64,000 nt of DNA from Candidatus Thorarchaeota archaeon. GTDB taxonomy: Archaea > Asgardarchaeota > Thorarchaeia > Thorarchaeales > Thorarchaeaceae. Location of the stretch: positions 32,001-96,000 of the forward strand of contig JBHLQH010000005.1 of NCBI GenBank assembly GCA_048884965.1, in the 5' to 3' direction. Of the stretch, positions 457 through 50,430 are shown one piece after another. The notes below the pieces were generated by a model, which worked only from the letters and a program-made list of their open reading frames with translations, was not told the DNA's origin and ran no database searches. The position numbers and the translations under genes were made by a program. Positions within the stretch are counted from its first letter, which is position 1. The number at the start of each line of letters is the position of its first letter.

Positions 457-566
457 CCAATCACCTATTCTTTCCTTGAATGATTATCCAATTTGGTGTA
501 TCGTTAGTCAGCTTGGAAACATATATACACAAGGTACTTTCGCAATTGCTTCATCGGGTGAATGAT

Positions 567-1961
567 ATGGGGAAAAAATTTGTGCCCAGAGGCGTTATGC
601 CTGCTCTTGTAACCCCCTTCACGAAGGATGGAGATCTTATAGAAGACAGCTATAAGGAAATAATCGACTATGTCATAAGCCGAGGAGCTACTGGCGTTGT
701 TCCAGCAGGGACAACTGGCGAGTTCGTCTATATGCGAACAGAAGAGCGGAAGAAGCTTCTTCGTTTGACAGTGGACATCGTTGATGGTCGTGTTCCAATT
801 GTAGCCGGTACGGGACAGAATAGCACAAAGGCTACTATCGCATTGACAAAGTATGCTGAAGATATAGGATGCGATGCAGCATTAGTTATCTCTCCTTTCT
901 ACTTGAGACCCGGTGACAAAGGTTACTATGAGCACTACGAAAATGTTGCTAATCAAGGTAATTTGCCAATTATCCTCTATAATATACCTCAATGCACTCT
1001 TGGTGTTCTCACCTCATCAGTCGTTGAAGATTTGGCAGAGCTTGACAATGTCGTTGGAATCAAAGATAGTAGTGGAGTGATTCCACATACTGTTGAATTG
1101 ATTCAGAAACTAAAAGGAAAGATACCTGTCCTCATCGGTCATGATGAGTGCTTCTTATCTGCAGTTGCTGCTGGTGCACAAGCTGCAATTCTTGCATCTG
1201 CGAATATTATCCCCCATATATGGCTGGAGATCATGGAAAAAGTTCAGAGTGGTGATATCCCAAGAGCAATGGAACTTCAACACTCAGCTCAAACATTCGC
1301 CAGAATCGTAACTCGAAATGGAGGAGCTCCTCCTGTTAAGGCCGCTTTCAAGATGATGGGCATCAAAGCTGGCAAATCAAGAATGCCGCTAGATACGGGT
1401 GGCACATTATCAGTGGAGTTGAAGGATGAGATACGATTGGAACTCGAAACCCTTGGTCTTCTTGAGCCATTACATACTTCATCCATTGATACAAACATAA
1501 GTATTGAGAAGCTGCTTGCAGATGAGGGTTTTGAGGTTGGCTCAGAGGTTCTTCTGGGATCCGCTTCGTCTGAAAGGATTGCGGTAAGTGTCGCCGCTGG
1601 TCCCAAGAAGGGTGTCCTAGGTAGGGCTTTTGTGAAGCTACTTACTTCGCCTCGAATTGGGCACGAAGCACTTTCTGTTATTCTGGAACCAAATCTTGCC
1701 GTTAAACCGAGCAGCCTCATGGTACCAATGAAGACCATCACCTCTATGAGACAGGCCTCTTTCTTCTATGGTCCTGTTCAGTCAGGTGCTGCAAAGGCTT
1801 TTGCAGGAATCTTGGAGCATGGTAAAATCCCCACAAAATCGATTCTTGAAGATGTTGTAATCCTTGCTGTGGATGTCGACCTTCAGTCCCACAATAGAAG
1901 ACAAGTCACATCTGAAACAGAGCAAGTTGTGTCGCAAGCGCTGGAGGAAATCTGGAGGTAA
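567..1961 (+). CDS. DHDPS/NAL-family class I aldolase fused to a C-terminal formaldehyde-activating enzyme (Fae)-like domain (copy 1)
   Basis: GVMPALVTPF, GTTGEF, SPFY, LYNIP and GIKDSSG (Schiff-base Lys). The C-terminal GHEALSVILEPNLAVKPSSLMVP...YGPVQSGAAKA matches the Fae core. ATG at 567 after GGGTGA is preferred over 480. Confidence 0.85.
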   Translation: MGKKFVPRGVMPALVTPFTKDGDLIEDSYKEIIDYVISRGATGVVPAGTTGEFVYMRTEERKKLLRLTVDIVDGRVPIVAGTGQNSTKATIALTKYAEDIGCDAALVISPFYLRPGDKGYYEHYENVANQGNLPIILYNIPQCTLGVLTSSVVEDLAELDNVVGIKDSSGVIPHTVELIQKLKGKIPVLIGHDECFLSAVAAGAQAAILASANIIPHIWLEIMEKVQSGDIPRAMELQHSAQTFARIVTRNGGAPPVKAAFKMMGIKAGKSRMPLDTGGTLSVELKDEIRLELETLGLLEPLHTSSIDTNISIEKLLADEGFEVGSEVLLGSASSERIAVSVAAGPKKGVLGRAFVKLLTSPRIGHEALSVILEPNLAVKPSSLMVPMKTITSMRQASFFYGPVQSGAAKAFAGILEHGKIPTKSILEDVVILAVDVDLQSHNRRQVTSETEQVVSQALEEIWR

Positions 1962-1966
1962 ATAAG

Positions 1967-3442
1967 ATGAGTGAGAAATTCAAGTTCAAAGGTGTTTATC
2001 CCGCATTGGTAACGCCCTTCAATGAAGGTGGGATAGATGAAGCAAAATATCGTGTTCTCATCGATTACGTGATTAGATCTGGAGCTACCGGGATTGTTCC
2101 TTGTGGCACAACTGGTGAATTCACTTCAATGCGATTTGAGGAGAAAGTTGAGGCCATTCGAATTGCATGCGATGCCGCAAAAGGAAAGGTCCCAGTCCTT
2201 GCGGGAACTGGTGCTGCATATACTGGTGACGCAATAAAGATTACTAGAATGGCTGCAGAGTATGGAGCTGATGCAGCCTTAGTAGTTTCACCGTACTTCA
2301 TGAAACCCTCGAACAAAGAACTATTCGAGCACTACGAGAGAGTTGCCAACAATTCAGATATTCCGATCTTTCTCTACAATATCCCACAAGTCACTGGAGT
2401 GCCAATACACTGGACCGTTGTTGATGGTCTTCGTGAGATTGATGGCATTATCGGAATGAAAGACTCAAGTGGTGATTTGGTCAATTTGACTACCATCCTA
2501 GTGCGAAGACCGGATGATTTCCAAGTTGTTATTGGACATGATGAAGTTGCGTTACCTGCTTTGGCGAGTGGGTGTGATGGTGCAATTCTAGCAAGTGCAA
2601 ACATCTTCCCGAACAGATACATCAAAATGCAGAGTGCACTCGCGAATGGAGATTTGAAGGAAGCATTACTGGTACAACGAAGCATTCAGAAGACTGTACG
2701 AATCATTGTTAATCGGGGCGGTGGACTAGCAGTTAAGGTTGCTCTAAATATGATGGGAATCCCTGTCGGTCTGGCTAGGAAACCTCTTCTGAAAGGAGAT
2801 TCGATGTCCTATGAGGATATTGATGAACTAAGGACTTGCTTAGAGGACCTCCAGTTGATTCCTAAGGGTCCTGTGACATTCAAGATGGGCAAGAAGTCTG
2901 TCATTTCAGAAACCTATCCCAAAGCTGTAGGAATGGTCCCTAGTATTGTCGAGGATCTTACTTTATTGCATGGAGAGTCTCTTTGTGGTGCAGGAAATGA
3001 GGTGGCACATGTTGATCTTGTACTAGGAATTCGTGATGGTCCATTGAGTACTGCTTTGGAAGGCGCTGGTTCGATTCGCGAAGGCTATCATACTGCGGAG
3101 ATCATCAAGGATCTTCAGCCAACGACTGTCTTTGCACCAACCGTTACGATTACTCATGAGCACCACAAGAAGATGGTACATGATTTTGCAAAGAAGGCCG
3201 TCATTGATGCCGTGAAGAGAAGTATCACTGATGGAGTCATTCCCGATGAACTGGTTCCTGATATTCTCATTATGGCGAATGTCTTTGTGCATCCCAATGC
3301 CGTTAATCCTCGAAGAGTGCATATCAACAATTTTCGTGCTGTCCGTCATGCAATTAGACGCGCAATCGAAGGCAGATTCTCCACTGATGAGATAATTGCT
3401 AGGAAGGAATCTGCACGGCATCCGTTTGCATACAATCCATGA
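1967..3442 (+). CDS. DHDPS/NAL-family class I aldolase fused to a C-terminal Fae domain (copy 2)
   Basis: GTTGEF, SPYF, LYNIP and GMKDSSG. The C-terminal GESLCGAGNEVAHVDLVLG...VFVHPNA...NFRAVRHAIRRAI...ARHPF is typical of Fae. GGAGGT SD; starts 5 nt after the upstream stop. Confidence 0.88.
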   Translation: MSEKFKFKGVYPALVTPFNEGGIDEAKYRVLIDYVIRSGATGIVPCGTTGEFTSMRFEEKVEAIRIACDAAKGKVPVLAGTGAAYTGDAIKITRMAAEYGADAALVVSPYFMKPSNKELFEHYERVANNSDIPIFLYNIPQVTGVPIHWTVVDGLREIDGIIGMKDSSGDLVNLTTILVRRPDDFQVVIGHDEVALPALASGCDGAILASANIFPNRYIKMQSALANGDLKEALLVQRSIQKTVRIIVNRGGGLAVKVALNMMGIPVGLARKPLLKGDSMSYEDIDELRTCLEDLQLIPKGPVTFKMGKKSVISETYPKAVGMVPSIVEDLTLLHGESLCGAGNEVAHVDLVLGIRDGPLSTALEGAGSIREGYHTAEIIKDLQPTTVFAPTVTITHEHHKKMVHDFAKKAVIDAVKRSITDGVIPDELVPDILIMANVFVHPNAVNPRRVHINNFRAVRHAIRRAIEGRFSTDEIIARKESARHPFAYNP

Positions 3443-3452
3443 TTTCACTATA

Positions 3453-3480
3453 TAGGGGCCTTGAGCCCCTACACTTTTTC
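3453..3480 (+). terminator. Hairpin plus T-tract after the aldolase-Fae operon
   Basis: TAGGGGC-cttga-GCCCCTA followed by CACTTTTTC. Confidence 0.55.
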
Positions 3481-27555: not shown

Positions 27556-30500
27556 ATGATTGTTAGAGCGATTAGCATCAAAAAGAGAAAAAACGTTAGA
27601 GTAAGAATTCTTCAGCTTTCAACAATAGCTGTTCTTTTCCTCTTACTAGTGCCGCTTCAAACACCATTTACTGACCCGGAATTTGTCGATCCAAGAGGAA
27701 TTGAAGGGACATCGAGGAATGATTACGCGCTTGCTGATACTACAAGCTATTCTGGCTCAGGCGATTCTTTGTCCATCAGATACTCCGGTATCGTGACCAA
27801 TGTCTATGATGACACATTCGTCATCGACTCATCAACCTCCGATATTGCCAGTGTTACGATCGATGATGGCTGGACAGGTTCCGGACTGCGGACTACAATT
27901 GATACTCTCTCGCTGGATGTCAATGCTGTAAGGAACAGCGATATGAATTCCTATCATAATGAGAAATGGATAGAAGAAGGCGCATACCAGAGTGAGGATG
28001 TGACGGTTCCTGATTCATGGACACTGACCAAAGCCACTACTAATGGAGAGACTGGTCACCCCTTGCATGGCATCTTTGAGATGAATGATGTTGGCAGTTC
28101 GGGCTATTCAGGTACAATGGGCTGGAGATTCGATGCAGAGTGGTCCATAAGTGCTACTGTAAATGCTGATGATCAGATATACTTGAGTCAGCTCGTTCAT
28201 GTACCTTACAGAGAGGTCTACTCGGCTGAAATAACATTCAATTATCACGTCCTTTCCTCTTCTAGTTTGGCAGACCAAGTCTTTCTCTTCACCAGATTCA
28301 ATGGATATGAGACAGAGTTCCATGTTTTTGAGTCAGGAGACACGACTGATACATGGCTCACAGGAAGCATTACTATCCCATCTGCCCAGCTAGATGTCAT
28401 TTCAATGCCCAACTCAATTCTTCTGGAGGTAGGATTACAATCAAATGTTGCTGGAAGTCAATCAACAGCAAGGAACTCATATGTTTATGTTGATAATGTC
28501 GAGCTCAATCTGAATGTTCGACCGTTCCCAGAGCAGATTGACCTAAAGGTCAATGGAACCCTAGTTGATGGCGCAGTAGAAGGAAGCATCTATCCATATT
28601 TGGAGGATGATAGCAATAGGGACGCTCAGGATGATGACTATGGGAATGGAATCGACCTTGATGGTTATCCTTGGGGATCCGGTTCTTCTGGAGTATTATT
28701 TGTGGGTGCTTGGGGGACCAGTTGGACCGACATTGTATCATATCAAGCAGGATTTCAATTCCCCCTTGATATACCTCAAGGTGCAGTGATTACGTCTGCA
28801 TATCTTGAAGTGGAACCAGATGGGGAAATTGGACTGGCTAATTTGAGAATCTATGCCGCTGGCCAGAACTCGTCTGGTCTTCCTATCGAGAACTTTACTA
28901 CAGGTCTCCCTATAATGGAAGATCGATTCAATTGGGTCGATACAAGCGTTGATTGGACTGTCACGGATATTATTGGACCAGTTAGGATACGGCAAAGATC
29001 TCCTGATATCGCCCCTCTGCTTCAGTCCATTGTTTCGGATAGTAATTGGATGAGTGGTAATTATACATGTCTGATGCTGGACTACATGTGGGGAAGTAAC
29101 TACCAAGCTGAATGGGGCATCAAAGGCTCATCTGGTACTAGTGGTTTCACACAAGATGAACTCGCACGATTATTTGTTGAATACATGATTCCCCAATCAG
29201 AGGACACCGTATACCTAATGCAATACGAGAAAGACATTACGATACAAGCTAGTCAAGTTGTAGCTGACTTGACTGATTTTCCAGTTCTTATTGATATTTT
29301 TGATAGTGATTTGAAGACTGATGTCCAGGCTGATGGAGATGATATCGTCTTTAGACTAGGTGATGATGCTCTTGACTTCGAGATTGAAGCATTTGAGCAA
29401 GATTTCAATTTAACTCATGCTCACTTGACTGCTTGGGTTAAAATACCAAATCTCTCAAGTACTGTTGACACAGTCATCACAATGGCATATGGAAATCCGA
29501 GCGCATCCTCATCATCTTCAACAGCGGTTTGGGATGATTATGCTACAGTTAACCACCTGAAGGACGACCCGTCTGGTACTATCTATGATAGTACCTCAAA
29601 CAACTACGATGGCACGGCATATGGCACAATGGGCTCCGAAGATAGTGTTCCTGGGCTTGTAGGTAGAGGTATCGATTTTGATGGTTCTGGAACCGCTGAC
29701 ATGATTTCTATAGGTCAAATTTACACTGACGACTGGAGTGAGGTCACAATTAGTATCTGGGTAAGATCTGATTTAACGAAGGACGCTCGAGTATTCTCGA
29801 AGTCACCCTCTACGGCTACAACAGAACATATAGTCACAATGAGAGTTGACACAAGCAATCGAATGACGGCACGTATAAGAACTGATGCGGGAGGTACTTC
29901 AGTCAATAGTGTGGGTTCATTCACCCTAGGTTCATGGAATCTTCTGACATGGACTTGGAGCGCGTCATCTGGCTTTATACTTGGGTACATAAACGGAACT
30001 CAAGAGATAAACACAGCTCGATCCGGCACCACCCTTTACGATTCCATAGATGTGTTCGTTCTCGGAAACACTGACATGACTAACGACCGATATTTTGATG
30101 GAATACTAGATGAAGCACGCTTGGCAAACAGAGTTCTCCCACAAGCTTGGATTGCGACAGAATTTAATAATCAAATCGACCCTTCCTCGTTTGTTAGTGT
30201 TGGTTCTGAAAGAACACTCCAATCTACCTGGGTCGATGATTCTGAAGGCCGAGTAGTCGTATCGACAAACTCAGCCTTTCCAATCACTACTGATGTTATC
30301 TTAACTATGGATATCGAAGGGGTAGGACAATCACTTGATGTTTCATATAATCCTGGCGCAACTTTCTATGCTCGGAATGGAACAAACATCGTCGATTGGG
30401 TTGCGTACGCAATGATCTCCCCTCCAAATACAACGACCGACTTGAATGCGTACATTGATTATCCATTTACTCAATGGAACCCCGTTGCTGTGGCTAATCC

Positions 30501-33500
30501 CCTTGGACACAACAAGACATATGGCACAGATTGGGACTTCCAAGATGGAAGCATCATAGTCTACTCATCCGCAGTTGACTACTGGGGCCTCTGGAAGTTC
30601 TATTTTGAGAGCTGGAACTATGTTGAGAATATGCAGATTGGTATCAATGGACAGACACTCGGAACCACAGCTACCTTTGATGTCAATGATGTAGCTGCAT
30701 TTAGAGCAACCACACCTTGGATTACGAATGCACGAGTAGGTTTGTCTCTGACTGATCCTACAGGAAGTGAATGGCATACTGATTACGCTACTACTGGTAC
30801 CCCTGGTACAACTTGGCATGTTCCTGGTTTTCAATATCGGATGCAATTGACTGTAGCTGCATCAGGAGTCGATGCTGATGTAACAAATTATCCTATGCTC
30901 GTTAGTTTCTCAGATACTGATTTCACAAATACGGCAAAGGTTCAAGCAGATGGAGATGACTTCGTTTTCGTTCAAAATGGAGAGATACTTTCCCATGAAA
31001 TCGAACGCTTTGACCAAACCTCTGGAACATTGATCGCATGGGTAAAATGCAACCTGTCTAGTACTGTTGATAATACGCTATTGCTCTACTACGGAAATCC
31101 CGTTGTTGGTTCTACTGAGAGTCCTTGGGATTTGTGGGGTGGTAATTATGATGCTGTATATCACATGAATGAATTAGTTACAAATGAAGGCTCTGGAGAA
31201 GCTATCCACGATTCAACCGCGAACAACTACACTGGAACTCACAATGGTAATTCTCGGAATATTGGGATTGGAGCTAGCTATGGCCAATACTTCGATGGCA
31301 ATGATTACATATCGCTTAGTGAATCCCAAGCGTTCAATCCTTCTGGTGATGTAACGATTTCAGGGTGGTTCTATCTCTCAACTGCATTCGATTCCTCATC
31401 TGCAACTTCTCGTCTCTTGATTTCGAAGTATGCAAGTGGAGATGATAATTTTCATATCATTTTGGCAGGAACCGACTATACTGAAACAGGATTCTCCTCA
31501 TACGGCGCGTTGGTCTTTGGATTCGAAACGGCAGGATCAGAATATGTCAAATGGACAACCCGGGCATCTTGGAGTAGTGGGGTTTGGCATCATTTCGTTT
31601 GTGTCCTTGATTCTGACACTCCCAGCAATATCAAGATATATGCAGATGGCATTGATGTAACTTCTACGAGCTATTCTGGTAGTGCCTCATATGTAGCAAT
31701 TCCAAGTGCGGGTGATTGGGGTTTTGGTGGAGGAACTATGGACACATCTGAGATAGCCGCTGGTTCTGCATACTTTTTAGGTAACATAGATGAAATGAGA
31801 ATTTCAAGTGATCAGAAATCCTTGGGTTGGACTCAAGTATCATATGATAATATTTTTTCATCCTCTTCCTTCATCACGAAAGGAACTGAGGTTACAAAGA
31901 CATCTCCTCAACTGACGATTACGAAGACCATAGATTCGACTGCTCCTGCAGGACTTTGGACTGCTACTATGTACTACAATGACACAGGATCCTCAATAAC
32001 AAACGCTACAGGTCTCTATGAACGTGAGTTCATCGTACAGCATGATACGACACTTACGCTCAACTATCCGACTGATGCAGTTTCAGACAAGATCGCATAC
32101 TCAACCGCAGGTGAGCCAATTTATATTGAATATGAGCTAACAGATGACATTACTGCTGGAGGAGTTCCTGGTGCTACGGTCAAGATGAATTGGACTGTCA
32201 GTGGCACGCCAACAGAGATCACGATGGATGATTTAGGTGATGGTCGCTATGGAAAGACACTTGATACCGATGATCTCATCACAAATCAACAGTGGAGAAT
32301 AAACATCTGGTCATACCATCCCTACTATAATAATGCCACCGATTATTTCGACATTGACCTCTATCATGCGACAAACATGAGTTATGTGGATGTGGTGTCT
32401 ACACCCGTTGGGTACGATTTCAAAGCGACTCTTGTGTTCTACGACTCTTACTCAGAGACTCCCATTCTTGGCGCTACGATTACATTCGATAATGGCACTG
32501 CAGTCAGCTTTTCTGATGAAGGAAGTGGACGATATGCTATTACGATCTCTACTACTACCTTAGACTTTGGGGATTATTGGTACAGATTCAAAGCTACAAA
32601 GGCTGGTTCGTTCCTAGAAGATGCATATTGTAATGTGACATTCACCTTGAGAAAGCATTACACCTCCATCTCTGTAAGTGGGGATCTTCTCACTCCTGCT
32701 GGATACTCGACCGATGTTACAGTCACGATAATCGATATGGATACTGGTGGAACTGTCGGTATTGGAAATGTTGCTACGTGGACCTTCGATCCAGCTAGCT
32801 ACTCTGACACAACTGAAACACCTCCTGGTGATTTCATAGTGACACTCAACACTGTAGGATGGGCAGTTGGTACTGACACTGTGACTCTTTCTGCAACACT
32901 ATCTGGTAACTATTATAGCCCCACCGATTATTCCTTTGATATCGAAATTAGGAAACATTACACTTCAGTTTCTGTACAAGGTGATTTCCTGACTCCTCAT
33001 GGCTATTCTACTTATGTCACCGTTGTACTAACAGATCTGGATACAGGAACAACATTCTCATTGACTTCTAATATTGCATCATGGACCTTCAATCCCGCCA
33101 GCTATGGCGACACAACTGAAACACCACCCGGTGACTTTGACGTAACAATTGACACGTCGGGTTGGTCAGTTGGTACCGATACGGTTACACTTTCTGTAAC
33201 AATGAGTGGAATATATGAAGATCCTGCAAACTATCTATTTGACATAGAGATTCGACGACATTATACATCAGTATCAGTTAGTGGTGATTTCATCATACCC
33301 TATGGCCAAATGACATCGCTTGTAGTTACTATCATTGACCTTGACACTGGAACAGCTCTTGGAAGCACTGCATCTGTTTCATCATGGACCTTCAATCCAG
33401 CGACCTATAGTGACACGACAGAAACACCACCGAGCGACTTTGCTGTGACTCTGAACACATCTGGTTGGTCTGTTGGCACCGATACCGTAACTTTGTCTGT

Positions 33501-36500
33501 CACGATGACTGGCATCTATTATAGTCCATCGAACCATCAGTTCGATATCGAGATTCGAAAGCATAGGACCGCAGTTTCTGTAGTGGGTGAATTCGTAACA
33601 CCATATGGCGCAAGTACATCACTGACTGTAGTCATTCGAGATCTCGATAATGGATCAGTACTTACCAGTACCTCCATGATTGCATCATGGACTTTCAATC
33701 CCGCCAGCTATGGTGATACAACTGAAACACCCCCCGGTGACTTTGCTATCATACTTAATACTGCCAGCTGGTCAGTGGCGACTGAAACAGTGACTCTATC
33801 AGTCACGATGACTGGCATCTATGAGAATCCGAATAATGTGCAATTTGATATTACAATAAGGAAGCATTACACATCCGTTACTGTTATTGGTGACCTAGCG
33901 ACTCCTTATGGATTTAGTACTGTCCTCACCGTTGTCATAACTGACAGTGATCTTGGTACGATTCTTGCAACTACAACAAACGTAGCCTCATGGACCTTCA
34001 ATCCTTCAAGCTATGGCGATACTACTGAAACCCCACCAAGTGATTTCTCAGTAACATTGAACACCATAAGCTGGGCAGTCGCAACGGAAACAGTAACACT
34101 GACAGTCACGATGACTGGCATCTATGAGAATCCTGCAAGCTACCAATTTGGCATCCAAATCAGAAAACACTACACTGCTGTTTCTGTCACTGGTGATATG
34201 GTCAGTCCTTATGGGAACACAACTGACCTTTCTGTTATTATAACCGATCTAGATACGAACACCGTTCTAGGATCAACGGCAAACGTAGCCTCATGGACCC
34301 TCAATCCCGCTAGCTATGGCGACACGACTGAAACACCACCTGGTGACTTTGCTGTTACATTAGATACATCTGGTTGGTCTGTTGGTTCCGAAACGGTTAC
34401 TCTCTCTGTTACAATGAGTGGAACTTACAACAATCCCTCTAACTATCAATTCAGCATTACCATAACCAGCTTAGAGATCGATGCATATAATGAACCAAAC
34501 GACCTTATCTTCCCAACTGGTTCGGACTTTAGGATCATCATTCGAGTCAATGTATCTGAGCATGGAGTCTATTATGGAGATCCATTAACAGGACTCGTGC
34601 AAGGAGAATTCTCGGTCACTGGCTACACAATCAAGGAATGGTACCATCTAGGGAACGGAAGATACAACTTCACCATTGACGAGGCAAGTTTCCCTGAAGG
34701 CACATATACTATTACACTCAAAATCACGACATCGAGTAGTATCTATGGTGATGCTACTCTACAAATCACATTCAGATATCGCCCAGCTCTAAGCGAAGCA
34801 TCTTCACCTGACCGAGCAATCGTAACACCCTATGAAACTGACTTCGTTGTATCGATTACCTATACGGACATCGATCGTGATATTGGTATCACAGGAGCCT
34901 CGATTTCAGCTGAGGGAATTACTTTCTATAATGAACTTGACCTAGGAGCTGGACAATATCAAGTTACTATCAATGTCACAGGTCTGACAAAAGGAGAGCA
35001 TCTTTACAATCTTACGATTGACAAGGCTGGATACGACGCAGCAAAACTGAGCTTCAAGGTAGTTATCAGGATTGCATATACATATGCAATTCCTACAGTG
35101 GGTGCACTAGACATTCCGGTAGGCGACGATGTTGTATTCTATGTTGAATACTGGGACATCGATCATGATTTACCAATTGATGACACATCGCCATTTATTG
35201 CAACTTCAACTTGGACTCACACAGTGACATTCACCTACATTCCCGCTCAGCAAAGATACCGTGTTGACTTCCCCACCTTTGAGGATGATGCACTAGTACA
35301 GAATTTCGTGATAACCTTCAACTTCTCCAAGGGTGAGAACTATCAATTTGGCATCTTCAATATCTCTATCACCGTGAGAACGCACTACACTGATTTCCGA
35401 CTGGTTAGCGCAGTAGAGCCAACTAGCTTCAATGACAACATAACGATCTCTGTCTTCTATGGTGACTTAGATAGTGGCACGGGTATCGCCTCCCGCGATA
35501 TTGCACATCGTATATGGAATGGAACACATGAAGTTACATCCTATTTGTACAATGACACACTACTAGGTGGCGGCTATTACACTATCATAGTTCCTGCTCC
35601 CCAATTTGGAGGATTAGGATTACAATCATTTACAATCTACTTCAACTGGACTGGCCCTATCTACACCTATGCGAACAAGACATTGATCACGTCAGTGAAT
35701 ATCATTGGAGAAGATTCTCGGTTGAGCTTACTTGTGACTGCAGAGCCTACTCCTTATCTTGAGAATATGACTTACACACTCTTCTTTGCGGCTGTGAATG
35801 GCACTGGTATTTTCAATAATACTGGAAATGTATTCGTCAGCGTGGTCTTTGTAGGTGTTACTGTAGACACCTCACAGGTGGACATATGGGAGATCAACCC
35901 CGTTACCAATAGAGGTCAATACTCGATCAGATTCAACAGCTCAATATTTGCGATAACCGGACTTATCTACATGAAAGTATACTTCAATTGGTCTGCAGAT
36001 GTGGAGCCATACTATACAAATCGAACTGATACGGTTTCTGTAAGGGTACTTCCGCGTGACTCGTTGATTTCAGTAGATCCACCATCTCAAACCGCCTATG
36101 CGGAGAATGCTACGTTCTCGTTCACTTTTGACGATGTGACGGGGACACTCTCAGAACCTATTGCAAATGCAAGTTCTCTAACCATTGGACTAACCCTAGT
36201 CGATTACGTGTTGATATATGACTCCCCAACAAGAACCTTCTCCGTTTTGTTCAATACCAGCCAATTTGGCTCCTTGGGGCTTCAAACGTTCACACTAAGC
36301 ATCACATGGATTGGAGCTCCATTCTATGCAAATCAAACTGGAAAGACCATCTCTATTACCGTTACTTTGCGACAGACAACACTCGACTTCCAATCCCCTG
36401 CTCCTACCCAATACATGGATAATGTCACGTTCTCAGTCTTTTGGACAGATGTCGCTGGCGCTTCATCCTTTGGGATTGCTGGAGCTACTCTTCTATTGTA

Positions 36501-39500
36501 TGATGGAGCCTCTGAGATTGCCTCCCAATATTATTCCGTTCAGTTTATTGGCTCGGGTGAATACGAAGTTGAGCTAAGTACAGAATACAAGGCAGCACCT
36601 GGTTATTATTCACTAACGGTAAATATCTCAACAAGTGATTTCTACTATGCTGAGAGAATCTCAAGTAGGATTTTCAATATTCGATATAGATCTACTTTGG
36701 TATCAGCTGAGCCAGTTGACTTGACACCCTTTAACGATCCAGTTCAGGTTATCTTGTACTATCAAGATTTGATTACCTTGGTTGACATCGATAATGATAC
36801 CTTTGATGTTAGTATCGAATTGCTAACCGCAGGAAGCTGGATATTCACCTCACAATGGCAGAGTGCTAGTGGATATTACGTCATAAATGTACAAACATCT
36901 GATCAGGTTGGACTGCAGATAGGAGTACAATATCCGTTGCATTTCAATCTGAGTTTTGCCTACCAGAGTCCGTACTATCGGCATGATGATATTACCGTCT
37001 ACTTTGAATTGAGATACCGTGAATCCACATTGGAGAGATTTGTTGCACCAACACAGACTCCCTATAGTGACTATGCCAATTTCACCGTCTATTATTCTGA
37101 TGTTGATGCAGATGTAGGGATATTAAGCGCTCAGTTAGCTGTACATGATGGTTCCTCTTTCATGACTCTTGGAACCGAGTATCTCTTTAGTGCACTTGGC
37201 AGTGGCCTTTATAGAGTATCAGTGCTGACTTCAGCTTTAGGAGCTCCAGGACCTCATGGAATTACCGTCTATGCGAATTGGACATCTGGTACTCCATATC
37301 ACGACAATGCAACACTTGCAATAACAATCAACATCATTCGAAGGGTTACCAATGTTGAGATAGTCACTCCTCCCTCTCAAACGAATTACCTCGAGAATGT
37401 GACTTTCATTGTGTCATTCATTGATGTTAGCACAGATTCTGCACTTGCAGTGACCAAGAATCGGTTGCAAATCTGGAATGGCGGAACTTTGATGTCTTCA
37501 AGTGATTTCTCAATTAGTCAATTTGGAGGAACATACGAAATAAGTATCAACTCAACACTTCTTTCCTCTACACTGGTGACTAATCAGAATTTGACAGTAC
37601 ATGTCGATTGGCCTGAGGCTCCAAATTACTATAGAGATGATTCCACCTCAACACGATATACGCTAATTGTTAGAAGCACATATGTTTCAATTAATCGACC
37701 CGCAAATACTGCCTATGGTGAGAATGCAACCTTTAGCTTCACATTTGTAGACTCCACAATAATACCTGAAGAGAATATTCAGCTATCAGGATCATTGATA
37801 ATCACAACGAATCTGGTTGAAACACCATCATTGTCATATGATTCGCCAACAAGAACCTTCACTATGGTCTTTAACACCTCACAATTTGGGTCAACAGGAG
37901 CGCAATCCTTTACACTAAGTGTACAGTGGTTTGGAACCCCCTACTATGCCAATAAGACCTCTAATACAGTCTATGTGACAGTTATCTATCGTCAAACCCA
38001 AGTTGAATTCGACACACCTGATCCTACACCATACGGTGACTCAGTGAATTTCACCATTAGATATCTTGACATTGCAGGAGCAAGCTCCTTTGGTATTGGC
38101 GATTCAGTACTCACTCTCTATTATGGCGGTGGAGTGATTCCTGGGTCCTATTACAATGTAACTCATGATGGAGAGGGAACCTATGAGATTGAGTTTGATT
38201 CAGGATACTTCAGCAATCCCGGAAAATATGCCATAAATGCCTCCTTGGTGTATTCAGGAAGTTACTTTGCGAATGATGCATATGCGATTAGATCGCTATC
38301 AGTCAGACTGCGAACAACCGTTCTCTCAGCAGACCCAGTTGGGTCAGTTGGATACGGGACTCCTATGGATTTGACCCTCTACTTCCAAGACCAACTTACC
38401 CTTCTTGATATTGCGAATAGCTCAACGACATTTATTGAGATTCTCAATAATACAGGCACACCTTGGGAGTTCACAATCACCTGGAATGCAGCGTTGAGTC
38501 AATATGATATGGTCATAGAAACAAATGGCCAGCCGCTATCGGTAGGTCTAACATATCGATTACACCTAAACATGAGCTATGCATACCAAGATCCCTTCTA
38601 CAGATGGGATGATGTGTACGCGACCTTTACCATAAGAACTAGGACCACAACACTCGACGTGTTTGAAGGTGCTCAGCCAACATCCTATAACGAGTATATC
38701 ACCTTCACACTATACTACTGGGATGTAGACATCGTCGCAGGTATAACTTCCAGTACGACTTTCACTGTTACAAATGAAACTCACTCTCTCACATTGACAA
38801 CAGACTTTCTGTTTTCCCATATTGCAAATGGCTACTATCTGATATCTGTTAATGCTAGCCGTCTAAGCACACTGGGCAGTCATGAACTGAAAATCACGGC
38901 CGTTTGGACCGGAGGGGCACCATACAGGAATAATGCAGTTCGAAATATAACCGTGAGCGTTATTGAGCGAACCACAGAGGTAGAGATTATCTCTCCACCC
39001 TCTTCGACTCCATATCTGGATAATGTAACTTTCACCTTCAGATATACTGACACCATCAATGGACAGCCTATTTCCATCACTAGTAGTGACCTCGATATCT
39101 ATTCCAATGGCTCACTGCTAGCGCCTAACGAATTCACCTTGATCCAGATCGGAAGCATCTTCGAAGTGAGTATCAATTCTACGATATTAAGCACTAAACT
39201 TGTTGACAGCTTTAACATAACAATTCTCGTAGACTGGAGTTTAGCACAAGCTCCATACTATGAGGATGCTATCACTTCGCTCCGCGTTTCCACTCGAGGT
39301 CGTATAATGTTCGTTGAGGTTGGAACGATAGAAACGACTCCCTATGGAGATGATATGCTCATCACTATCTTTGTGAATGACGACAGTACGGGCAAACCAA
39401 TTGAGAATGCAATAATTCTCTTCAATGGTCAGACAGTTGATGTAACCGGACTCTGGACATTGTCTGTAGGGTCTGGCGCTTCAGCTGGATATTACAACAT

Positions 39501-42500
39501 TTCTGTGCCAACTACTGCTTTCGTCTTCGCTCCTTCCGAGTTAGGTGACTACAAGTTCGATTTGACTGTACAATGGGACCAGTCCCAAATTCCATACTAC
39601 CGAAATAGAACATCGATAGTGCTGACTGGCTCAGTTGATGCAATCTGGGCTGTGGTGCAATCAGAAGTTCCTCAACCTTCATCTGTACAGATTACAGACG
39701 ATGTCTATGTCATTGTCGAATTCACTGACCTTGATCATGGGGTGGGGATCGAAGGTGCCGGGACGACAATCTATGTTAGATATCTTACTTCTGGCATCAT
39801 TCCTCAGGGTCTCAACATCGCGGAGCTGGGCAATGGACTCTACAATATCAGCTTCAGTACAATAGATATCAACTCTTTTGGGAGCGTTGTGATGAATATC
39901 ACTGCTACAAAGGATTTCTACACGTCATCCAATGTAAAGCCATCATTCACAGTTATTGAGATTAGTACTACTTTGGAGCCTGTTGAAACCCAGATCACAC
40001 TCTATTGGTCGCAATTGGCTAATATCTCTGTAGACTATAATAACCTACTACATCTCAATCTTACTACAGGAGCTACAGTCTGGTGGAATTATAGCGGATA
40101 TTCAGGGTTCTTCACTGAAATTGGCAGCACTGGATCTTATGAGGCAAGCATTGATACAGCAATAAGTGGAACTGGAACAAAAACTGTTAGGATAACAGCC
40201 GACGCTGATAAGTACGTGCGGTCGCTTGTCACAGTCACACTTGTTGTCCTTGATTTGCCCTCAGATATGACTCTTGTTGAACCAGAAGCTGTCTTTGCAC
40301 AAAACAGAGGTAATGAAATCTATGTCAAGATATTACTAAATGACACTCTAAATGGAGTTCTCATTAATAATGCATATGTCAATGATATCTACATAGTTTT
40401 CAATAACACGCGATATGATATGAATTACAACATCACCGGACAGTTCTACTACTATACCTTACCATCAACAGCTACTTCCGTACTCCTACCAGGTTTCGTA
40501 TATACAGCCCGTATTTCTGCGGATATCGATTACTACGATCCTGTTAGTACTGTGTTCAAGATCGATTTGCTTGCGACGCTGACTTTCCTCGAATATTATG
40601 GAGTTACGAGAGATAAGATGGATGTAACCTATTCTGATTTCATTACGTTTGAATTGAACTTTACAGATGTAGAAGGCAATCCTATAGATTCTGGAGAGGT
40701 CTTCTGGGCTCCTAGCAGCGAAGTGCCGCCCTATACATTTTCCAACTTAACTTATGGTCTCAACGGAATTTGGAGTTTGACACTCAATTCATCCTCATTC
40801 GGCAAATGGGGTACTTTTGGAATTACATTTTCTGGAGTACCTACAGATGCTAATTTCGATTCTGCGTTTGTAAGCTTGACTATAACTGTGAAGAAGATAT
40901 CCACTGAGGTCATTAGTCCTCCAATCTCTCCGATTTCAGTCTATTGGGGTTGGAAAGGAAATATCTCGTTCACATTCAATGATACGTGGTTTGCCAAGGG
41001 CATCGATGGGGCGAATATCACTCTAACCTTTGATATTGACGTACCCATTCATGACCTTGGAAATGGAACCTATCTCTTCTATATTGACACTTCCCTTCTT
41101 GATGTGTCAACCTATCGGTTATTGCTCACTTTTCTGAAAGAGAATTACGATACTCGGAATGCAGGAGTTCAAATTAAGGTTGAAAATGTGCCTACTGAGT
41201 TACTACTCACTACTCCGCAATTGAATTGGATGGAGGATGATCCTACGCACTTGGAGGTGCCATTTGGTGAGATAGTGCAAATCTCACTATTCTATAATGA
41301 CACTGACATTAGCGATGGTTATGTAGGAGGGCTTTCAGGTGCAATAAATATCACTTCGATCACTGGTGGTATCATTGGCGTTCCTCCATCTTTTGCATTG
41401 ACAGACTGGGGTAATGGAACCTACACATTCACTTTCGATACAACACAGGATTACCTCTTTCCTGATAATATACCTGGGTCATTGCCTAATGCTCCATACT
41501 ATCTAAATATTAGATTGGAGCTTTTATATCGATTAACTCAGGAGATCCGAATTTCTATCGTGATAATTGAGAGGCCGACTGCACTCGCGATTGTATCAAG
41601 CAACGTCGTTGATGGCTCCACTTCAATCTACTATGGTGATACGATCTTCATTGATTTTGAGTTCTCAGAAGATTGGGAGCCTCTCCGAGGGACTGGAATA
41701 GACGACGCCAACTACTCAATTTCAAAAACAGGCTATGAGATTGAATATTCTTGGGAGGTATTGGGTCAAGGAAGATACAGGCTCGCTATAACTGTCAGGG
41801 CACCATTTCCTGTAGGAATAACCGTTGAGGATGCCAGATTAGAAATTACCTTTACAAAGGAAGACTATGTACTGAAGACTAGTGTTGTAAGCATCAGAAT
41901 AATTCCCACAGATACTCAACAGACAATGAGTAATGTCATTTCCTTTGGAACTCCACTTCTATTCGTCATCCTACTTGTTGGCTTACTTTGGGTACGTATC
42001 TTCAGCATTCCAAAGCGGCTTCGACAAATCAACGGCCAAATCAAAGCACTTCGAAAAGGCAAGATACCAAAACCAATCGATGAGGTAAAGAGCCGCCAGC
42101 AACTTATAGCTGATCTCTTCAATGACACTCACAAGAAGTACGAAATCACCCGAACTGCTGATATGATGCCTGAGGAATCAGTACCCGTCAACATTCCCGA
42201 GATGGGCGAGCTCCTCATACAGCTCTCTATCCTCACCAACCTGAGTCCCGATGAGCTGGATGAGTTCAAAGCTGACATCTCGAAGATGAAGATGAGCGAG
42301 CAGGCAGCCTTCGTGAAAGAGGTCATCGACCAAGAGGCAATCCGTGCAGCCCGACGTGAGGGTGTCAGCATGGAGGAGATTCTCCAGAGGATCGAGCGAG
42401 ATGCCAAACAACGCCTGAGTGGAGCCGCTGCAGACGAGGATGTCTTTGTCAAATCAGATGTTGATGAACCCATCTTCCTCTCTCCTGATGAAGACCGAGA

Positions 42501-48468: not shown

Positions 48469-50430
48469 GTGACTCGAAGGAAAGGAATTGGGATTGTTAT
48501 CATCTTTCTTGTTCTACTAGTTGGCTCAGTGTATTTGCTACCCTTCTTCCAACCAGATAATGGAACTCACGGTGAAGATGAACTTGAAATCACACCTCAT
48601 CCATACAACGACCTTAATTGGTGGGATATTCCGTGGGAGTTGGCTTCCAGTGCTAATCTTGTGACCCACATGCTTGCCATTGATCGCAACAGCTATCGCC
48701 ACATGCTAACAGTTCCTGGTGAATACTACGATGCGGCTGAAACCATAGCTGGAATCCTTGAAGGATACGGTCTTGAAACTTGGTATGAAGGGGCACATGA
48801 GTCACTAATGGCTGTGAAGAGAGGGTTTGGAAGCGACAACAGGGCCTTGGTTTTCACTGCATATCTCGATACTGAAGTTGGCTATGCCTACACTCTGCAA
48901 CACAATACCGGGGCGTGCGCAATGTTAGCCCTAATAGCGGAGCTTCTCAGAAATTACAGACTTTCAATTGATGTTTACTTCTGTTTTCCTTCATACTCAA
49001 AATCAGGTGACTATACACCAAGTGGTATTCTTGTTCCACTCCATTATGGCGCCCAAGAGATTTCTGATTATCTCATAGCCGAGTCTGTCGATGTACTTGC
49101 TTTGTATGATTTTGAGGGACTTATGCTCGCTGATGAAGGCTATTTCGTAGGATATGATGGAACTGAAACCTATCGACGTTCTACATTCCTTATTGAGATG
49201 TTGGACGTATTCCTGAAGCAGGGTGGGTATGACATCCTCACTTCTGGAATAAATGATTTTGATCTTTCTGATCAAGTTGTGTATCTCGCAAGAGGTTTTC
49301 CAACCATTCATGTAGAAAGCGTTGCAGAGATAGATTCAGAAGACCCCCCTTCTGATACGATTTACAGCTCTGACTATAACAATGAATATGTTACTGCTCT
49401 AGGAAAGGCATGTGCTGCAATGGCAGTATTCCTCTCCTATAGTGGGAATGGGAACGATGTCAAGCAGTTATACGTAACAGACTTGGAGCCATCAAGTTCA
49501 GCTACAATATGGACTATGATGTCATCGAGCCAGAGCATCTTTGTTTACGCTCAGTCCAATGTGAGCACTTCAATAAGGTTCACACTTCAAAGTCCCCTTG
49601 GCGACACGATTACTGAGATGACCGAAGAGGGGCAGAACATCACTTCCTCCTTCAGTGTGAATTCAGGTATAGGTCCCAAATTGATTACAGTTAGAAATAA
49701 CGGTAACGAGAGCATTCACATTAGGGTCACTTTCGAGTATATCAACGACTTTGATGGTGATAGTATCAGTGATGCAGAACAATATACTTGGGATGATCCC
49801 GTACCTGCATTAGACTGGGATCATGATGCACTCTCTGATGAGGATGAGGTTATTGCAGGTACCGATATTTTTGTAGATGATACAGACATGGACTCAATGT
49901 CTGATGGGTATGAATATGTTTTTGGATTAGATCCTCTCTCCGATGACACCTTGGAGGATCTCGACCAAGATGGACTAACTAATCTACGAGAGCTTGGGCT
50001 GGGTACATTTCCAAATAGCACAGACACTGATCAAGACACTCTGGATGATAATTGGGAGGTCACATTTCTAACAAATCCTCTCGTCGATGATGCCCAAGAG
50101 GATCCTGATAATGATACTCTTACTAACCTTGAAGAGTATGAACATGGTGCAGATCCATTGTCATCGGATGGTGACTTTGATGGCATTCCTGATGCTGATG
50201 AAGTAGAATTGGGCACGAATCCCTTAAACTCAGATTCTGACTCTGATGGACTTAGAGATCAGCTTGAGATACTTGAAGGACTAGATCCACTTGTACCAGA
50301 CTATGATGTGGATCTATCACCTGATGGACCTGATAGAAATCCACGTATCAACGCGCTGCTCGTCATCATTGGATTGGCACTTATTCCTGTCCTTATTGGA
50401 ACTGCCTATTTCTTCAGGAAAATCCGCTAG
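48469..50430 (+). CDS. Membrane-anchored protein: degenerate M28 peptidase-like domain + beta-sandwich + Ca-binding TSP3-like (DxDxDG) repeats (paralog 1)
   Basis: N- and C-terminal TM helices; M28 fold motifs without Zn ligands; repeated D.D.DGL.D..E...GT.P. Confidence 0.78.
   Translation: MTRRKGIGIVIIFLVLLVGSVYLLPFFQPDNGTHGEDELEITPHPYNDLNWWDIPWELASSANLVTHMLAIDRNSYRHMLTVPGEYYDAAETIAGILEGYGLETWYEGAHESLMAVKRGFGSDNRALVFTAYLDTEVGYAYTLQHNTGACAMLALIAELLRNYRLSIDVYFCFPSYSKSGDYTPSGILVPLHYGAQEISDYLIAESVDVLALYDFEGLMLADEGYFVGYDGTETYRRSTFLIEMLDVFLKQGGYDILTSGINDFDLSDQVVYLARGFPTIHVESVAEIDSEDPPSDTIYSSDYNNEYVTALGKACAAMAVFLSYSGNGNDVKQLYVTDLEPSSSATIWTMMSSSQSIFVYAQSNVSTSIRFTLQSPLGDTITEMTEEGQNITSSFSVNSGIGPKLITVRNNGNESIHIRVTFEYINDFDGDSISDAEQYTWDDPVPALDWDHDALSDEDEVIAGTDIFVDDTDMDSMSDGYEYVFGLDPLSDDTLEDLDQDGLTNLRELGLGTFPNSTDTDQDTLDDNWEVTFLTNPLVDDAQEDPDNDTLTNLEEYEHGADPLSSDGDFDGIPDADEVELGTNPLNSDSDSDGLRDQLEILEGLDPLVPDYDVDLSPDGPDRNPRINALLVIIGLALIPVLIGTAYFFRKIR

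What the first reader, a model, noticed from the sequence alone, without database searches (positions are those of the whole stretch)
567..3442. Tandem aldolase-Fae fusions: a candidate formaldehyde-channelling pyruvate aldolase system
Seen: two adjacent, co-transcribed genes each fuse a DHDPS-family TIM barrel to a formaldehyde-activating enzyme domain. Both barrels keep the pyruvate Schiff-base machinery (GTTGE, Tyr in YNIP, Lys in KDSSG). Both replace the DHDPS Arg that follows YNxP (YNIPQCT and YNIPQVT vs YNVPxRT) and both have GHDE instead of SGDD. Established: that Arg binds the carboxylate of aspartate semialdehyde; Fae condenses formaldehyde with H4MPT; and the well-known Fae fusion partner is Hps, another formaldehyde aldolase. 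Inference: these are not lysine-pathway DapA. They may interconvert pyruvate + formaldehyde with 4-hydroxy-2-oxobutanoate (or release formaldehyde from a related 2-keto acid) and hand the C1 unit to or from methylene-H4MPT. That would link homoserine or keto-acid metabolism to the archaeal C1/Wood-Ljungdahl pathway. I know of no characterised enzyme with this architecture.
Basis: partly seen in the sequence, partly recalled or inferred. Interest (0 to 1): 0.88.

Follow-up and report, generated by a model that had tools for sequence, protein, structure and literature searches.

The report
Split aldolase-Fae pair, mislabelled DapA
Two neighbouring genes of an Asgard archaeon, labelled in databases as the lysine enzyme DapA, each keep half of one formaldehyde-handling active site and most likely work together to move a one-carbon unit between a small keto acid and a folate-type carrier, in a pathway that no one has yet tested.

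Summary
Confirmed: both genes (Thorarchaeia) fuse a DHDPS-type barrel lacking Arg138 to a Fae domain. They are not lysine DapA (no DapB found). They are also not two complete enzymes. Bathyarchaeia and Lokiarchaeia have one intact gene; here A and B keep complementary halves of the Fae site, and a predicted A:B complex rebuilds it (0.86, best control 0.00).

A partner TIM-barrel gene X, or its remote homologue, occurs in 187 of 193 Asgard genomes with the fusion. Elsewhere X sits beside a PanB-like hydroxymethyltransferase with a narrowed pocket, or beside homoserine dehydrogenase, an aminotransferase and an aldehyde oxidoreductase. The metabolite common to these three modules is 4-hydroxy-2-oxobutanoate.

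Best reading: 4-hydroxy-2-oxobutanoate ⇌ pyruvate + methylene-pterin (about 0.7), probably catabolic (0.5 overall). The carrier need not be H4MPT: the pair also occurs in MCR-positive genomes with FolD and no Mch found. Nothing is assayed, and X's reaction is unknown. This scan noted the fusion before on other DNA (72 findings, at least 56 genomes), including the split pair.

The parts
556..561 (+). Shine-Dalgarno-like GGGTGA before the ATG of gene A
   Evidence: sequence
567..1961 (+). Gene A (P0001, 464 aa): DHDPS-like aldolase barrel fused to a partial Fae domain that keeps one face of the site (GHEAL, LEPNL..KP, RQAS..YGP.Q) and has lost the His/Asp motif and the C-terminal arm
588..1394 (+). 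Barrel of A (aa 8-276): TT motif, Tyr138 and Schiff-base Lys166 kept; DapA Arg138 position is Cys
1566..1946 (+). Fae domain of A (aa 334-460, model positions 10-135 of 159); Leu369 and Gln405 lie in the predicted interface
1967..3442 (+). Gene B (P0002, 491 aa): DHDPS-like barrel fused to a partial Fae domain that keeps the other face (VAHVD, P.VT, VFVHP, HPF tail) and has lost LEPNL and YGP
1982..2812 (+). Barrel of B (aa 6-282): TT motif, Tyr137 and Lys165 kept; Arg138 position is Val; Tyr107 position is Phe
2972..3427 (+). Fae domain of B (aa 336-487) with His348 and Asp350, the counterparts of Fae His22 and Asp24
3453..3480 (+). Terminator-like hairpin and T-run after gene B
   Evidence: consensus match only

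Best explanation
A and B are the two subunits of one heteromeric enzyme that arose by duplication of a single aldolase-Fae gene, with complementary loss of the two faces of the Fae site. The barrel forms a Schiff base with 4-hydroxy-2-oxobutanoate (HOB) and cleaves it to pyruvate and formaldehyde. The composite Fae site at the A:B interface loads the formaldehyde onto a pterin (H4MPT or tetrahydrofolate). The net reaction, HOB + pterin = pyruvate + methylene-pterin, makes it a non-homologous analogue of a PanB-type hydroxymethyltransferase. In Thorarchaeia it probably runs catabolically, downstream of the unknown TIM-barrel enzyme X, which would form HOB from a 4-substituted 2-oxo acid of amino-acid origin (the methionine keto acid is one candidate). 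Shown: architecture, complementary conservation, distribution, gene contexts. Predicted: the A:B interface. Inferred: substrate, direction, carrier, channelling, the reaction of X. My odds: not DapA 0.95, heteromer 0.8, HOB chemistry 0.7, catabolic direction 0.5 overall.
For: Complementary conservation across 112 A, 107 B and 118 single-gene proteins: His22-equivalent S 100%, B 99%, not seen in A (Ser 91%); LEPNL S and A about 100%, deleted in B; HPF tail S and B about 100%, absent in A. Predicted complex of the two Fae parts: score 0.86, best of 3 controls 0.00; the mark was reached by 58 of 80 solved and 2 of 110 mismatched pairs; runs agree in at least 79% of contacts, partner pLDDT at least 84; the interface joins A Leu369/Gln405 to B His348/Asp350/Thr394 and the tail. 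It may pass by likeness to the solved Fae oligomer, so it shows the likeness, not that this copy binds. The same A+B split recurs in Korarchaeota, Anaerolineae and others. X or X17 is in 187 of 193 fusion-bearing Asgard genomes and adjacent to the fusion in Bathyarchaeia and in several other Asgard families, including Lokiarchaeia and Atabeyarchaeia. In 80 metagenome loci X lies near a PanB-like gene (29), the fusion (4) or homoserine dehydrogenase (4), never two of them. All 25 near-full-length X-linked PanB-like proteins have Leu at position 179 and Ile at 214, where E. coli and G000 PanB have Val. Mutations at I202, I212 and V214 are used to change the substrate scope of E. coli PanB (PMC7610986). 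In Asgard families without any Fae, X heads an operon with an aminotransferase, homoserine dehydrogenase and aldehyde:ferredoxin oxidoreductase. Direction: Thorarchaeia mostly lack homoserine dehydrogenase (3 of 85) and have no ThrB over the cut-off (0 of 86), and G000 has aspartokinase, Asd and the aspartate-semialdehyde homocysteine enzyme clustered on C33, so a biosynthetic use for homoserine is not evident. The HOB aldol reaction is known from the E. coli class II aldolase RhmA/YfaU (PMC8879981, PMC7918591).
Against: No assay of any member was found. X has no assigned reaction; its fold matches TIM barrels only generically (best Z 12.6, and 14.9 for X17). Much of the X co-occurrence is physical linkage among kin, and many metagenome contigs are short, so 'never two modules' is not strong. 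The reaction should be near equilibrium (own knowledge), so direction is not fixed by chemistry. The fusion and homoserine dehydrogenase tend to exclude each other (41 of 193 against 130 of 207), and G000 has two ThrC-like genes, which fits a biosynthetic role. X was not found in 6 of 8 pair-bearing genomes of the G400 group, and in three of them both barrels lack the Schiff-base Lys. The Fae Lys71 position is Thr in the single-gene and B proteins (Thr in 56% of A), against Lys in Fae-Hps, so Fae activity itself is not guaranteed.
Confidence: 0.5

Rival explanations
1. Same chemistry, biosynthetic direction: pyruvate + methylene-pterin gives HOB, which is transaminated to homoserine (replacing homoserine dehydrogenase) or is the substrate of X.
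For: Families rich in the fusion lack homoserine dehydrogenase (f1 3/85, f13 0/12, f14 0/19, f4 0/3). ThrC-like genes are in G000 and near X in some Thorarchaeia. PanB runs in the synthetic direction. An aminotransferase follows the pair in L127.
Against: No canonical homoserine kinase in 86 Thorarchaeia. 34 of 79 fusion-bearing genomes of family f22 also have homoserine dehydrogenase. The X operon with aldehyde:ferredoxin oxidoreductase, and Lrp regulators and amino-acid dehydrogenases near X, read more naturally as amino-acid catabolism. A pure homoserine supply does not explain the need for X.
Confidence: 0.2
2. Hydroxymethyl transfer with another 2-oxo acid, such as 2-oxobutanoate or ketoisovalerate/ketopantoate.
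For: The commonest neighbour of X passes the TIGR00222 panB cut-off (331 against 207.55 bits). The barrel's specificity residues are not mapped.
Against: G000 has its own canonical PanB. X-linked PanB-like proteins have larger residues at two positions near the donor pocket. The homoserine dehydrogenase module points to an unbranched C4 skeleton.
Confidence: 0.15
3. The two domains are not coupled: the composite Fae is a general formaldehyde scavenger, the only Fae in Thorarchaeia, and the barrel is a separate lyase or a scaffold.
For: These are the only Fae matches in G000, and no Thorarchaeia genome has a strong Fae-Hps-like match. Pairs with two Lys-less barrels but retained Fae motifs exist.
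Against: The fusion is kept across archaeal phyla and in bacteria, the catalytic Lys is 100% conserved in A and single-gene proteins, and a PanB-like enzyme occupies its place beside X.
Confidence: 0.1
4. Lysine-pathway DapA, as the databases label it.
For: Both pass the TIGR00674 dapA cut-off (224 and 232 against 206.15) and are the only DHDPS-family genes in G000, which has aspartokinase and Asd.
Against: Arg138, which binds aspartate semialdehyde (PMC3188589), is absent in all three alignments. No DapB match in G000 (96% complete). Genomes of the G400 group carry a separate, unfused DHDPS gene, which in G427 has YNIPSRT and lies beside a DapB-like gene.
Confidence: 0.03

Closest known systems
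Archaeal bifunctional Fae-Hps (NF009833, PRK13307)
   Same: A Fae domain fused to a formaldehyde-handling aldolase, with the same logic of capturing formaldehyde on a pterin.
   Different: The partner is a DHDPS-family Schiff-base barrel placed N-terminally, not Hps. Fae Lys71 is mostly Thr. The site is split over two genes. Scores 70.7 and 84.5 are far under the 274 cut-off.
Fae of Methylobacterium extorquens (PDB 1y5y/1y60, PF08714)
   Same: Same family and fold by sequence; His22/Asp24 counterparts in B and Leu53/Gln88 counterparts in A.
   Different: Known Fae is a homo-oligomer (a pentamer, from memory) in which every subunit carries both faces; here each protein keeps only one.
Ketopantoate hydroxymethyltransferase PanB (PF02548)
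   Same: Proposed net reaction type: methylene-pterin + 2-oxo acid = 4-hydroxy-2-oxo acid. A PanB-like gene replaces the fusion beside X in 29 loci.
   Different: Not homologous: PanB is a single metal-dependent class II barrel; this is a class I barrel plus Fae.
HOB aldolase step of the synthetic homoserine cycle (E. coli RhmA/YfaU; PMC8879981, PMC7918591)
   Same: Pyruvate + formaldehyde = 4-hydroxy-2-oxobutanoate.
   Different: There it is a promiscuous activity of a class II aldolase and HOB is called non-native; here it would be a dedicated natural enzyme coupled to a carrier.
DHDPS/NAL family: DapA, human HOGA, KDG aldolases
   Same: TT motif, Tyr and Schiff-base Lys; HOGA also lacks Arg138 (PMC3188589).
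   Different: Apart from dapA, no subfamily model in NCBIfam reaches its cut-off; none carries a Fae domain.

Membership tests
DHDPS/NAL class I aldolase family (PF00701) | Profile match with TT motif, Tyr133 and Lys161 counterparts | tested here: met
DapA (4-hydroxy-tetrahydrodipicolinate synthase) | TIGR00674 score over cut-off | tested here: met
   224.1 and 232.2 against 206.15
DapA (4-hydroxy-tetrahydrodipicolinate synthase) | Arg138 for aspartate semialdehyde | tested here: not met
   Cys in A, Val in B; Cys, Val or Leu family-wide; role from PMC3188589
DapA (4-hydroxy-tetrahydrodipicolinate synthase) | DapB encoded in the genome | tested here: not met
   no PF05173 match in G000, 95.7% complete
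DapA (4-hydroxy-tetrahydrodipicolinate synthase) | DHDPS activity or dapA complementation | not testable with these tools
   needs an assay
Fae (PF08714, TIGR03126) | Pfam profile over cut-off | tested here: met
   85.4 and 102.9 against 27
Fae (PF08714, TIGR03126) | Equivalog-domain cut-off for a complete Fae in one chain | tested here: not met
   78.6 and 117.5 against 118.05; the single Bathyarchaeia gene meets it at 215
Fae (PF08714, TIGR03126) | His22, Asp24, Leu53, Lys71, Thr73, Gln88 counterparts (residue list from memory; the paper could not be fetched) | tested here: inconclusive
   His, Asp and Thr in B; Leu and Gln in A; Lys71 is Thr in B and Met in A; these meet only in the predicted A:B interface
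Fae (PF08714, TIGR03126) | H4MPT pathway in the same genome | tested here: inconclusive
   Mch in G000 and 80 of 86 Thorarchaeia, but 0 of 26 in the G400 group where 8 carry the pair and FolD is in 25
Fae-Hps (NF009833) | Hps domain fused to Fae | tested here: not met
   partner is DHDPS-like; no Hps over cut-off in G000
2-oxo-acid hydroxymethyltransferase (works like PanB) | Homology to PF02548 | tested here: not met
   no such match; the claim is analogy, not membership
2-oxo-acid hydroxymethyltransferase (works like PanB) | Pterin-dependent hydroxymethyl transfer activity | not testable with these tools
   inferred from module exchange beside X

The most novel reading that the evidence does not exclude
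X and its three interchangeable partners form an undescribed, widespread anaerobic route for amino-acid carbon (possibly methionine, through its keto acid) that passes through 4-hydroxy-2-oxobutanoate, a compound so far known from engineered pathways. The Thorarchaeia pair is its natural heteromeric pyruvate hydroxymethyltransferase, feeding one-carbon units into the Wood-Ljungdahl or folate pool.
Probability: 0.35. Interest if true: 0.85.

Novelty: new variant of a known kind. Interest (0 to 1): 0.72.

Why it matters
The fusion is in about half of the sampled Asgard genomes and is common in Bathyarchaeia, which are abundant sediment microbes. It is annotated as DapA, so reconstructions may credit these organisms with a lysine step they lack and miss a link between keto-acid and one-carbon metabolism. 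A dedicated natural HOB aldolase coupled to a carrier would interest engineers of the synthetic homoserine cycle, which now relies on promiscuous enzymes. The A/B split is a clear natural case of a homo-oligomer becoming a heteromer by complementary loss. The three-module pattern gives concrete, assayable substrates for two further unassigned families: X ('U32 family peptidase' or hypothetical) and the narrowed PanB-like proteins.

Tried and rejected
- Pantothenate PanB substitute: rejected for G000, which has its own PanB.
- Lysine DapA and Fae-Hps membership: rejected (see membership test).
- Only B's barrel is catalytic: rejected as a general rule. Four B proteins have lost the Lys and the TT motif while A keeps them, and the trans Tyr is not essential in HOGA (PMC3188589).
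- Co-transcription from RNA data: one small-share run; three short contigs, none across the A-B junction. No conclusion.
- Single or repeated origin of the split: Thorarchaeia A and B are each monophyletic (100/100), but deep branches are unresolved and no clade test was run. No conclusion.
- Function of X from structure: TIM barrel only, no standout match; Pfam and NCBIfam blank or weak; the Atlas feature search for X gave nothing over 0.8.
- The Fae structure paper and the Vorholt 2000 paper could not be fetched.
- Literature searches found no description of the fusion; the library lacks most subscription papers.
- A first metagenome scan with a single X protein found nothing.
- The demethiolase search returned mostly fungal and yeast enzymes, and nothing tied to X.
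Full report
OBSERVATION. The window begins with two ORFs on the + strand, A (567-1961, 464 aa) and B (1967-3442, 491 aa), 5 nt apart. Each has an N-terminal DHDPS-family barrel and a C-terminal Fae domain. Named close homologues are Thorarchaeota or Promethearchaeota proteins labelled 4-hydroxy-tetrahydrodipicolinate synthase, so the genome is taken to be Thorarchaeia. These two genes are the only DHDPS and the only Fae matches in the genome. A and B are 46% identical in the barrel but only 21% in the Fae part. Co-transcription is inferred from spacing, a ribosome-binding site before A and a terminator-like hairpin after B; RNA data did not test it.

NOT DAPA. Both pass the TIGR00674 cut-off, which explains the label. 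But the Arg138 position, which binds aspartate semialdehyde (PMC3188589), is Cys, Val or Leu throughout the family. No DapB was found in the 95.7% complete genome. Genomes of another lineage that carry the pair also carry a separate, unfused DHDPS gene, and in the related genome G427 that gene has the Arg motif and lies beside a DapB-like gene.

DISTRIBUTION. A barrel profile finds the family in 193 of 400 Asgard genomes: as a pair in Thorarchaeia (79 of 85), as a single gene in Lokiarchaeia, Atabeyarchaeia and other families, and not in families f7-f12, which lack any Fae. Bathyarchaeia have one intact 492-aa gene. A+B pairs also occur in Korarchaeota/Thermoproteota, Anaerolineae and an MCR-bearing lineage. 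Order A then B is kept in all 30 Thorarchaeia loci examined.

ONE SITE SPLIT OVER TWO GENES. Column counts over 118 single-gene, 112 A and 107 B proteins show complementary loss in the Fae domain. B keeps the His/Asp motif, P.VT, VFVHP and the HPF tail, and has deleted LEPNL and lost YGP. A keeps GHE.L, LEPNL, KP and RQAS..YGP.Q, and has lost the His, the Asp and the tail. The single-gene proteins keep both sets and pass the Fae equivalog cut-off that A and B each miss. From memory of the Fae structure paper, which I could not fetch, the pterin site lies between neighbouring subunits. The predicted complex of the two Fae parts scored 0.86 against a best control of 0.00 (the mark was reached by 58 of 80 solved complexes and 2 of 110 mismatched pairs; runs agree in at least 79% of contacts; partner pLDDT at least 84). 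Its interface joins A's retained face (including Leu369 and Gln405) with B's His348, Asp350, Thr394 and tail. A pass may come from likeness to the solved Fae oligomer and does not show binding; the informative point is which faces meet. The barrels differ less: the Lys is invariant in A but lost in 4 of 107 B proteins, the Tyr107 position is Phe in B, and the His of GHDE is mostly Ala in A.

THE PARTNER GENE. Clustering neighbours showed a 428-aa gene X, or a 312-aa gene X17 annotated 'U32 family peptidase', next to the fusion in most loci outside Thorarchaeia. X and X17 are remote homologues (hhalign E 2e-5; the X model matches Atlas models of X17-like clusters at TM 0.73-0.76) and are TIM barrels with no standout solved relative. 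In G000, X lies elsewhere (C17:50345-51619, 70% identical to a Bathyarchaeia X). Of 193 fusion-bearing Asgard genomes, 165 have X and 22 more have X17; the six without are Thorarchaeia MAGs of 62-88% completeness. Only 1 of 22 fusion-free controls had X17. Within family f22 the table is 79/0/2/54, though linkage and kinship inflate this.

THREE MODULES POINT TO ONE METABOLITE. In Asgard families f8 and f11, which lack the fusion, X heads an operon with an aminotransferase, homoserine dehydrogenase and aldehyde:ferredoxin oxidoreductase, sometimes followed by a PatB C-S lyase. In 80 metagenome loci X lies near a PanB-like gene in 29, the fusion in 4 and homoserine dehydrogenase in 4, with no overlap; many contigs are short. 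All 25 near-full-length X-linked PanB-like proteins have Leu179 and Ile214 where E. coli and G000 PanB have Val. Changes at I202, I212 and V214 alter the substrate scope of E. coli PanB (PMC7610986), so a smaller donor such as pyruvate is a fair inference. A plasmid X17 fragment sits directly before acylating acetaldehyde dehydrogenase and 4-hydroxy-2-oxovalerate aldolase. One compound fits all of these: 4-hydroxy-2-oxobutanoate (HOB), the keto acid of homoserine and the aldol of pyruvate and formaldehyde. That aldol reaction is known from promiscuous E. coli RhmA/YfaU in the synthetic homoserine cycle, where HOB is called non-native (PMC8879981, PMC7918591). The fusion would thus do in two linked steps what a PanB-type enzyme does in one.

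DIRECTION. Earlier notes of this scan read the fusion as biosynthetic, replacing homoserine dehydrogenase. I tested this. The exclusion is real across families (41 of 193 against 130 of 207) but weak inside f22, where 34 of 79 fusion genomes have both; kin are not independent, so the p-values overstate. Thorarchaeia also have no homoserine kinase over the ThrB cut-off (0 of 86). G000 can reach homocysteine from aspartate semialdehyde through a cluster on C33. If the fusion and the dehydrogenase module are alternative sinks for the product of X, their exclusion is explained as well. Lrp regulators, amino-acid dehydrogenases and aminotransferases near X and an aminotransferase with a branched-chain amino-acid transporter after the pair in L127 fit amino-acid catabolism. 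I therefore favour catabolism, moderately. The reaction should be near equilibrium (own knowledge), and G000 has two ThrC-like genes, so the biosynthetic reading stays open. That X removes a 4-substituent from a keto acid such as the methionine keto acid is my speculation from the sulfur-amino-acid neighbours; nothing here tests it.

CARRIER. G000 has both Mch and FolD, and Mch is in 80 of 86 Thorarchaeia. But in 26 genomes around G400, MCR-positive where tested (5 of 5; probably Methanomassiliicoccales, an inference), the pair is in 8, Mch was found in none and FolD in 25. The Fae Lys71 position is Thr in single-gene and B proteins and Lys in the Asgard Fae-Hps proteins examined.

NOVELTY AND VERDICT. 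I found no paper describing the fusion, within the limits of the library. The scan has noted it on other DNA 72 times, including the split pair and the partner gene; these are unchecked AI notes and are not counted as support. What I tested here and did not see in the notes returned is the PanB-like and homoserine dehydrogenase modules as alternatives beside X, the case for a catabolic direction, and the carriers without Mch. It is a new variant built from known parts: it works like Fae-Hps in design and like PanB in net chemistry, and is a member of neither. The finding is real, conserved and directly assayable, but unproven in substrate and direction. Interest 0.72.

Noticed in passing
G000 C17:50345-51619 (L159:8328-9623): Gene X, an unassigned 430-aa TIM-barrel protein beside an ECF S-component gene; near a ThrC-like gene in other Thorarchaeia. 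Probable pathway partner of the pair.
   Followed up: partly
L231:4636-5493 and 28 other metagenome loci: PanB-like subfamily beside X with V179L and V214I in all 25 near-full-length copies; probably not pantothenate enzymes, though they pass the panB cut-off.
   Followed up: partly
L179-L183, L185, L186 (Asgard families f8, f11); also L269, L270, L272, L274: Conserved operon of X, aminotransferase, homoserine dehydrogenase and aldehyde:ferredoxin oxidoreductase, sometimes with a PatB C-S lyase (the aminotransferase is not seen on the short contigs L269 and L272).
   Followed up: partly
L123:8544-11449, L294, L296 (G400, G404, G406): A+B pairs in which both barrels lack the Schiff-base Lys and TT motif while Fae motifs remain; genomes have FolD (and MCR in G400) but no Mch found.
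   Followed up: partly
P0101, P0103, P0111, P0114: Thorarchaeia B subunits with the catalytic Lys changed to Ser and TT to SL.
   Followed up: no
L105, L110, L114, L115; P0361: A Bathyarchaeia subgroup of the single gene shows PYYHKP where others have PYYLKP and did not match the YNIP pattern; the two Lokiarchaeia proteins examined have GWDE instead of GHDE.
   Followed up: no
G000 C33:4628-9065: Aspartokinase, Asd and a homocysteine-biosynthesis (PF01837-like) gene clustered, with no homoserine dehydrogenase found in the genome.
   Followed up: partly
G000 and family f1: Thorarchaeia lack the canonical Fae-Hps found in many other Asgard families; no Hps over cut-off in G000.
   Followed up: partly
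window 27556-42750 (+): 5064-aa ORF; its first 3000 aa match LamG-like and DUF2341 domains.
   Followed up: no
window 48469-50430 and 50502-52463 (+): Two tandem 653-aa ORFs with no Pfam match at E 1e-5.
   Followed up: no
window 14002-16338 (+): 778-aa protein with a C-terminal EAP30/Vps36 (ESCRT-II-like) match, E 3.7e-7; a small-GTPase-like ORF lies at 11510-12361 (-).
   Followed up: no
window 9727-10668 (+): Protein with a long tract of EEKPKKV/A repeats; the gene at the same place in L039 matches Ribosomal_S25.
   Followed up: no
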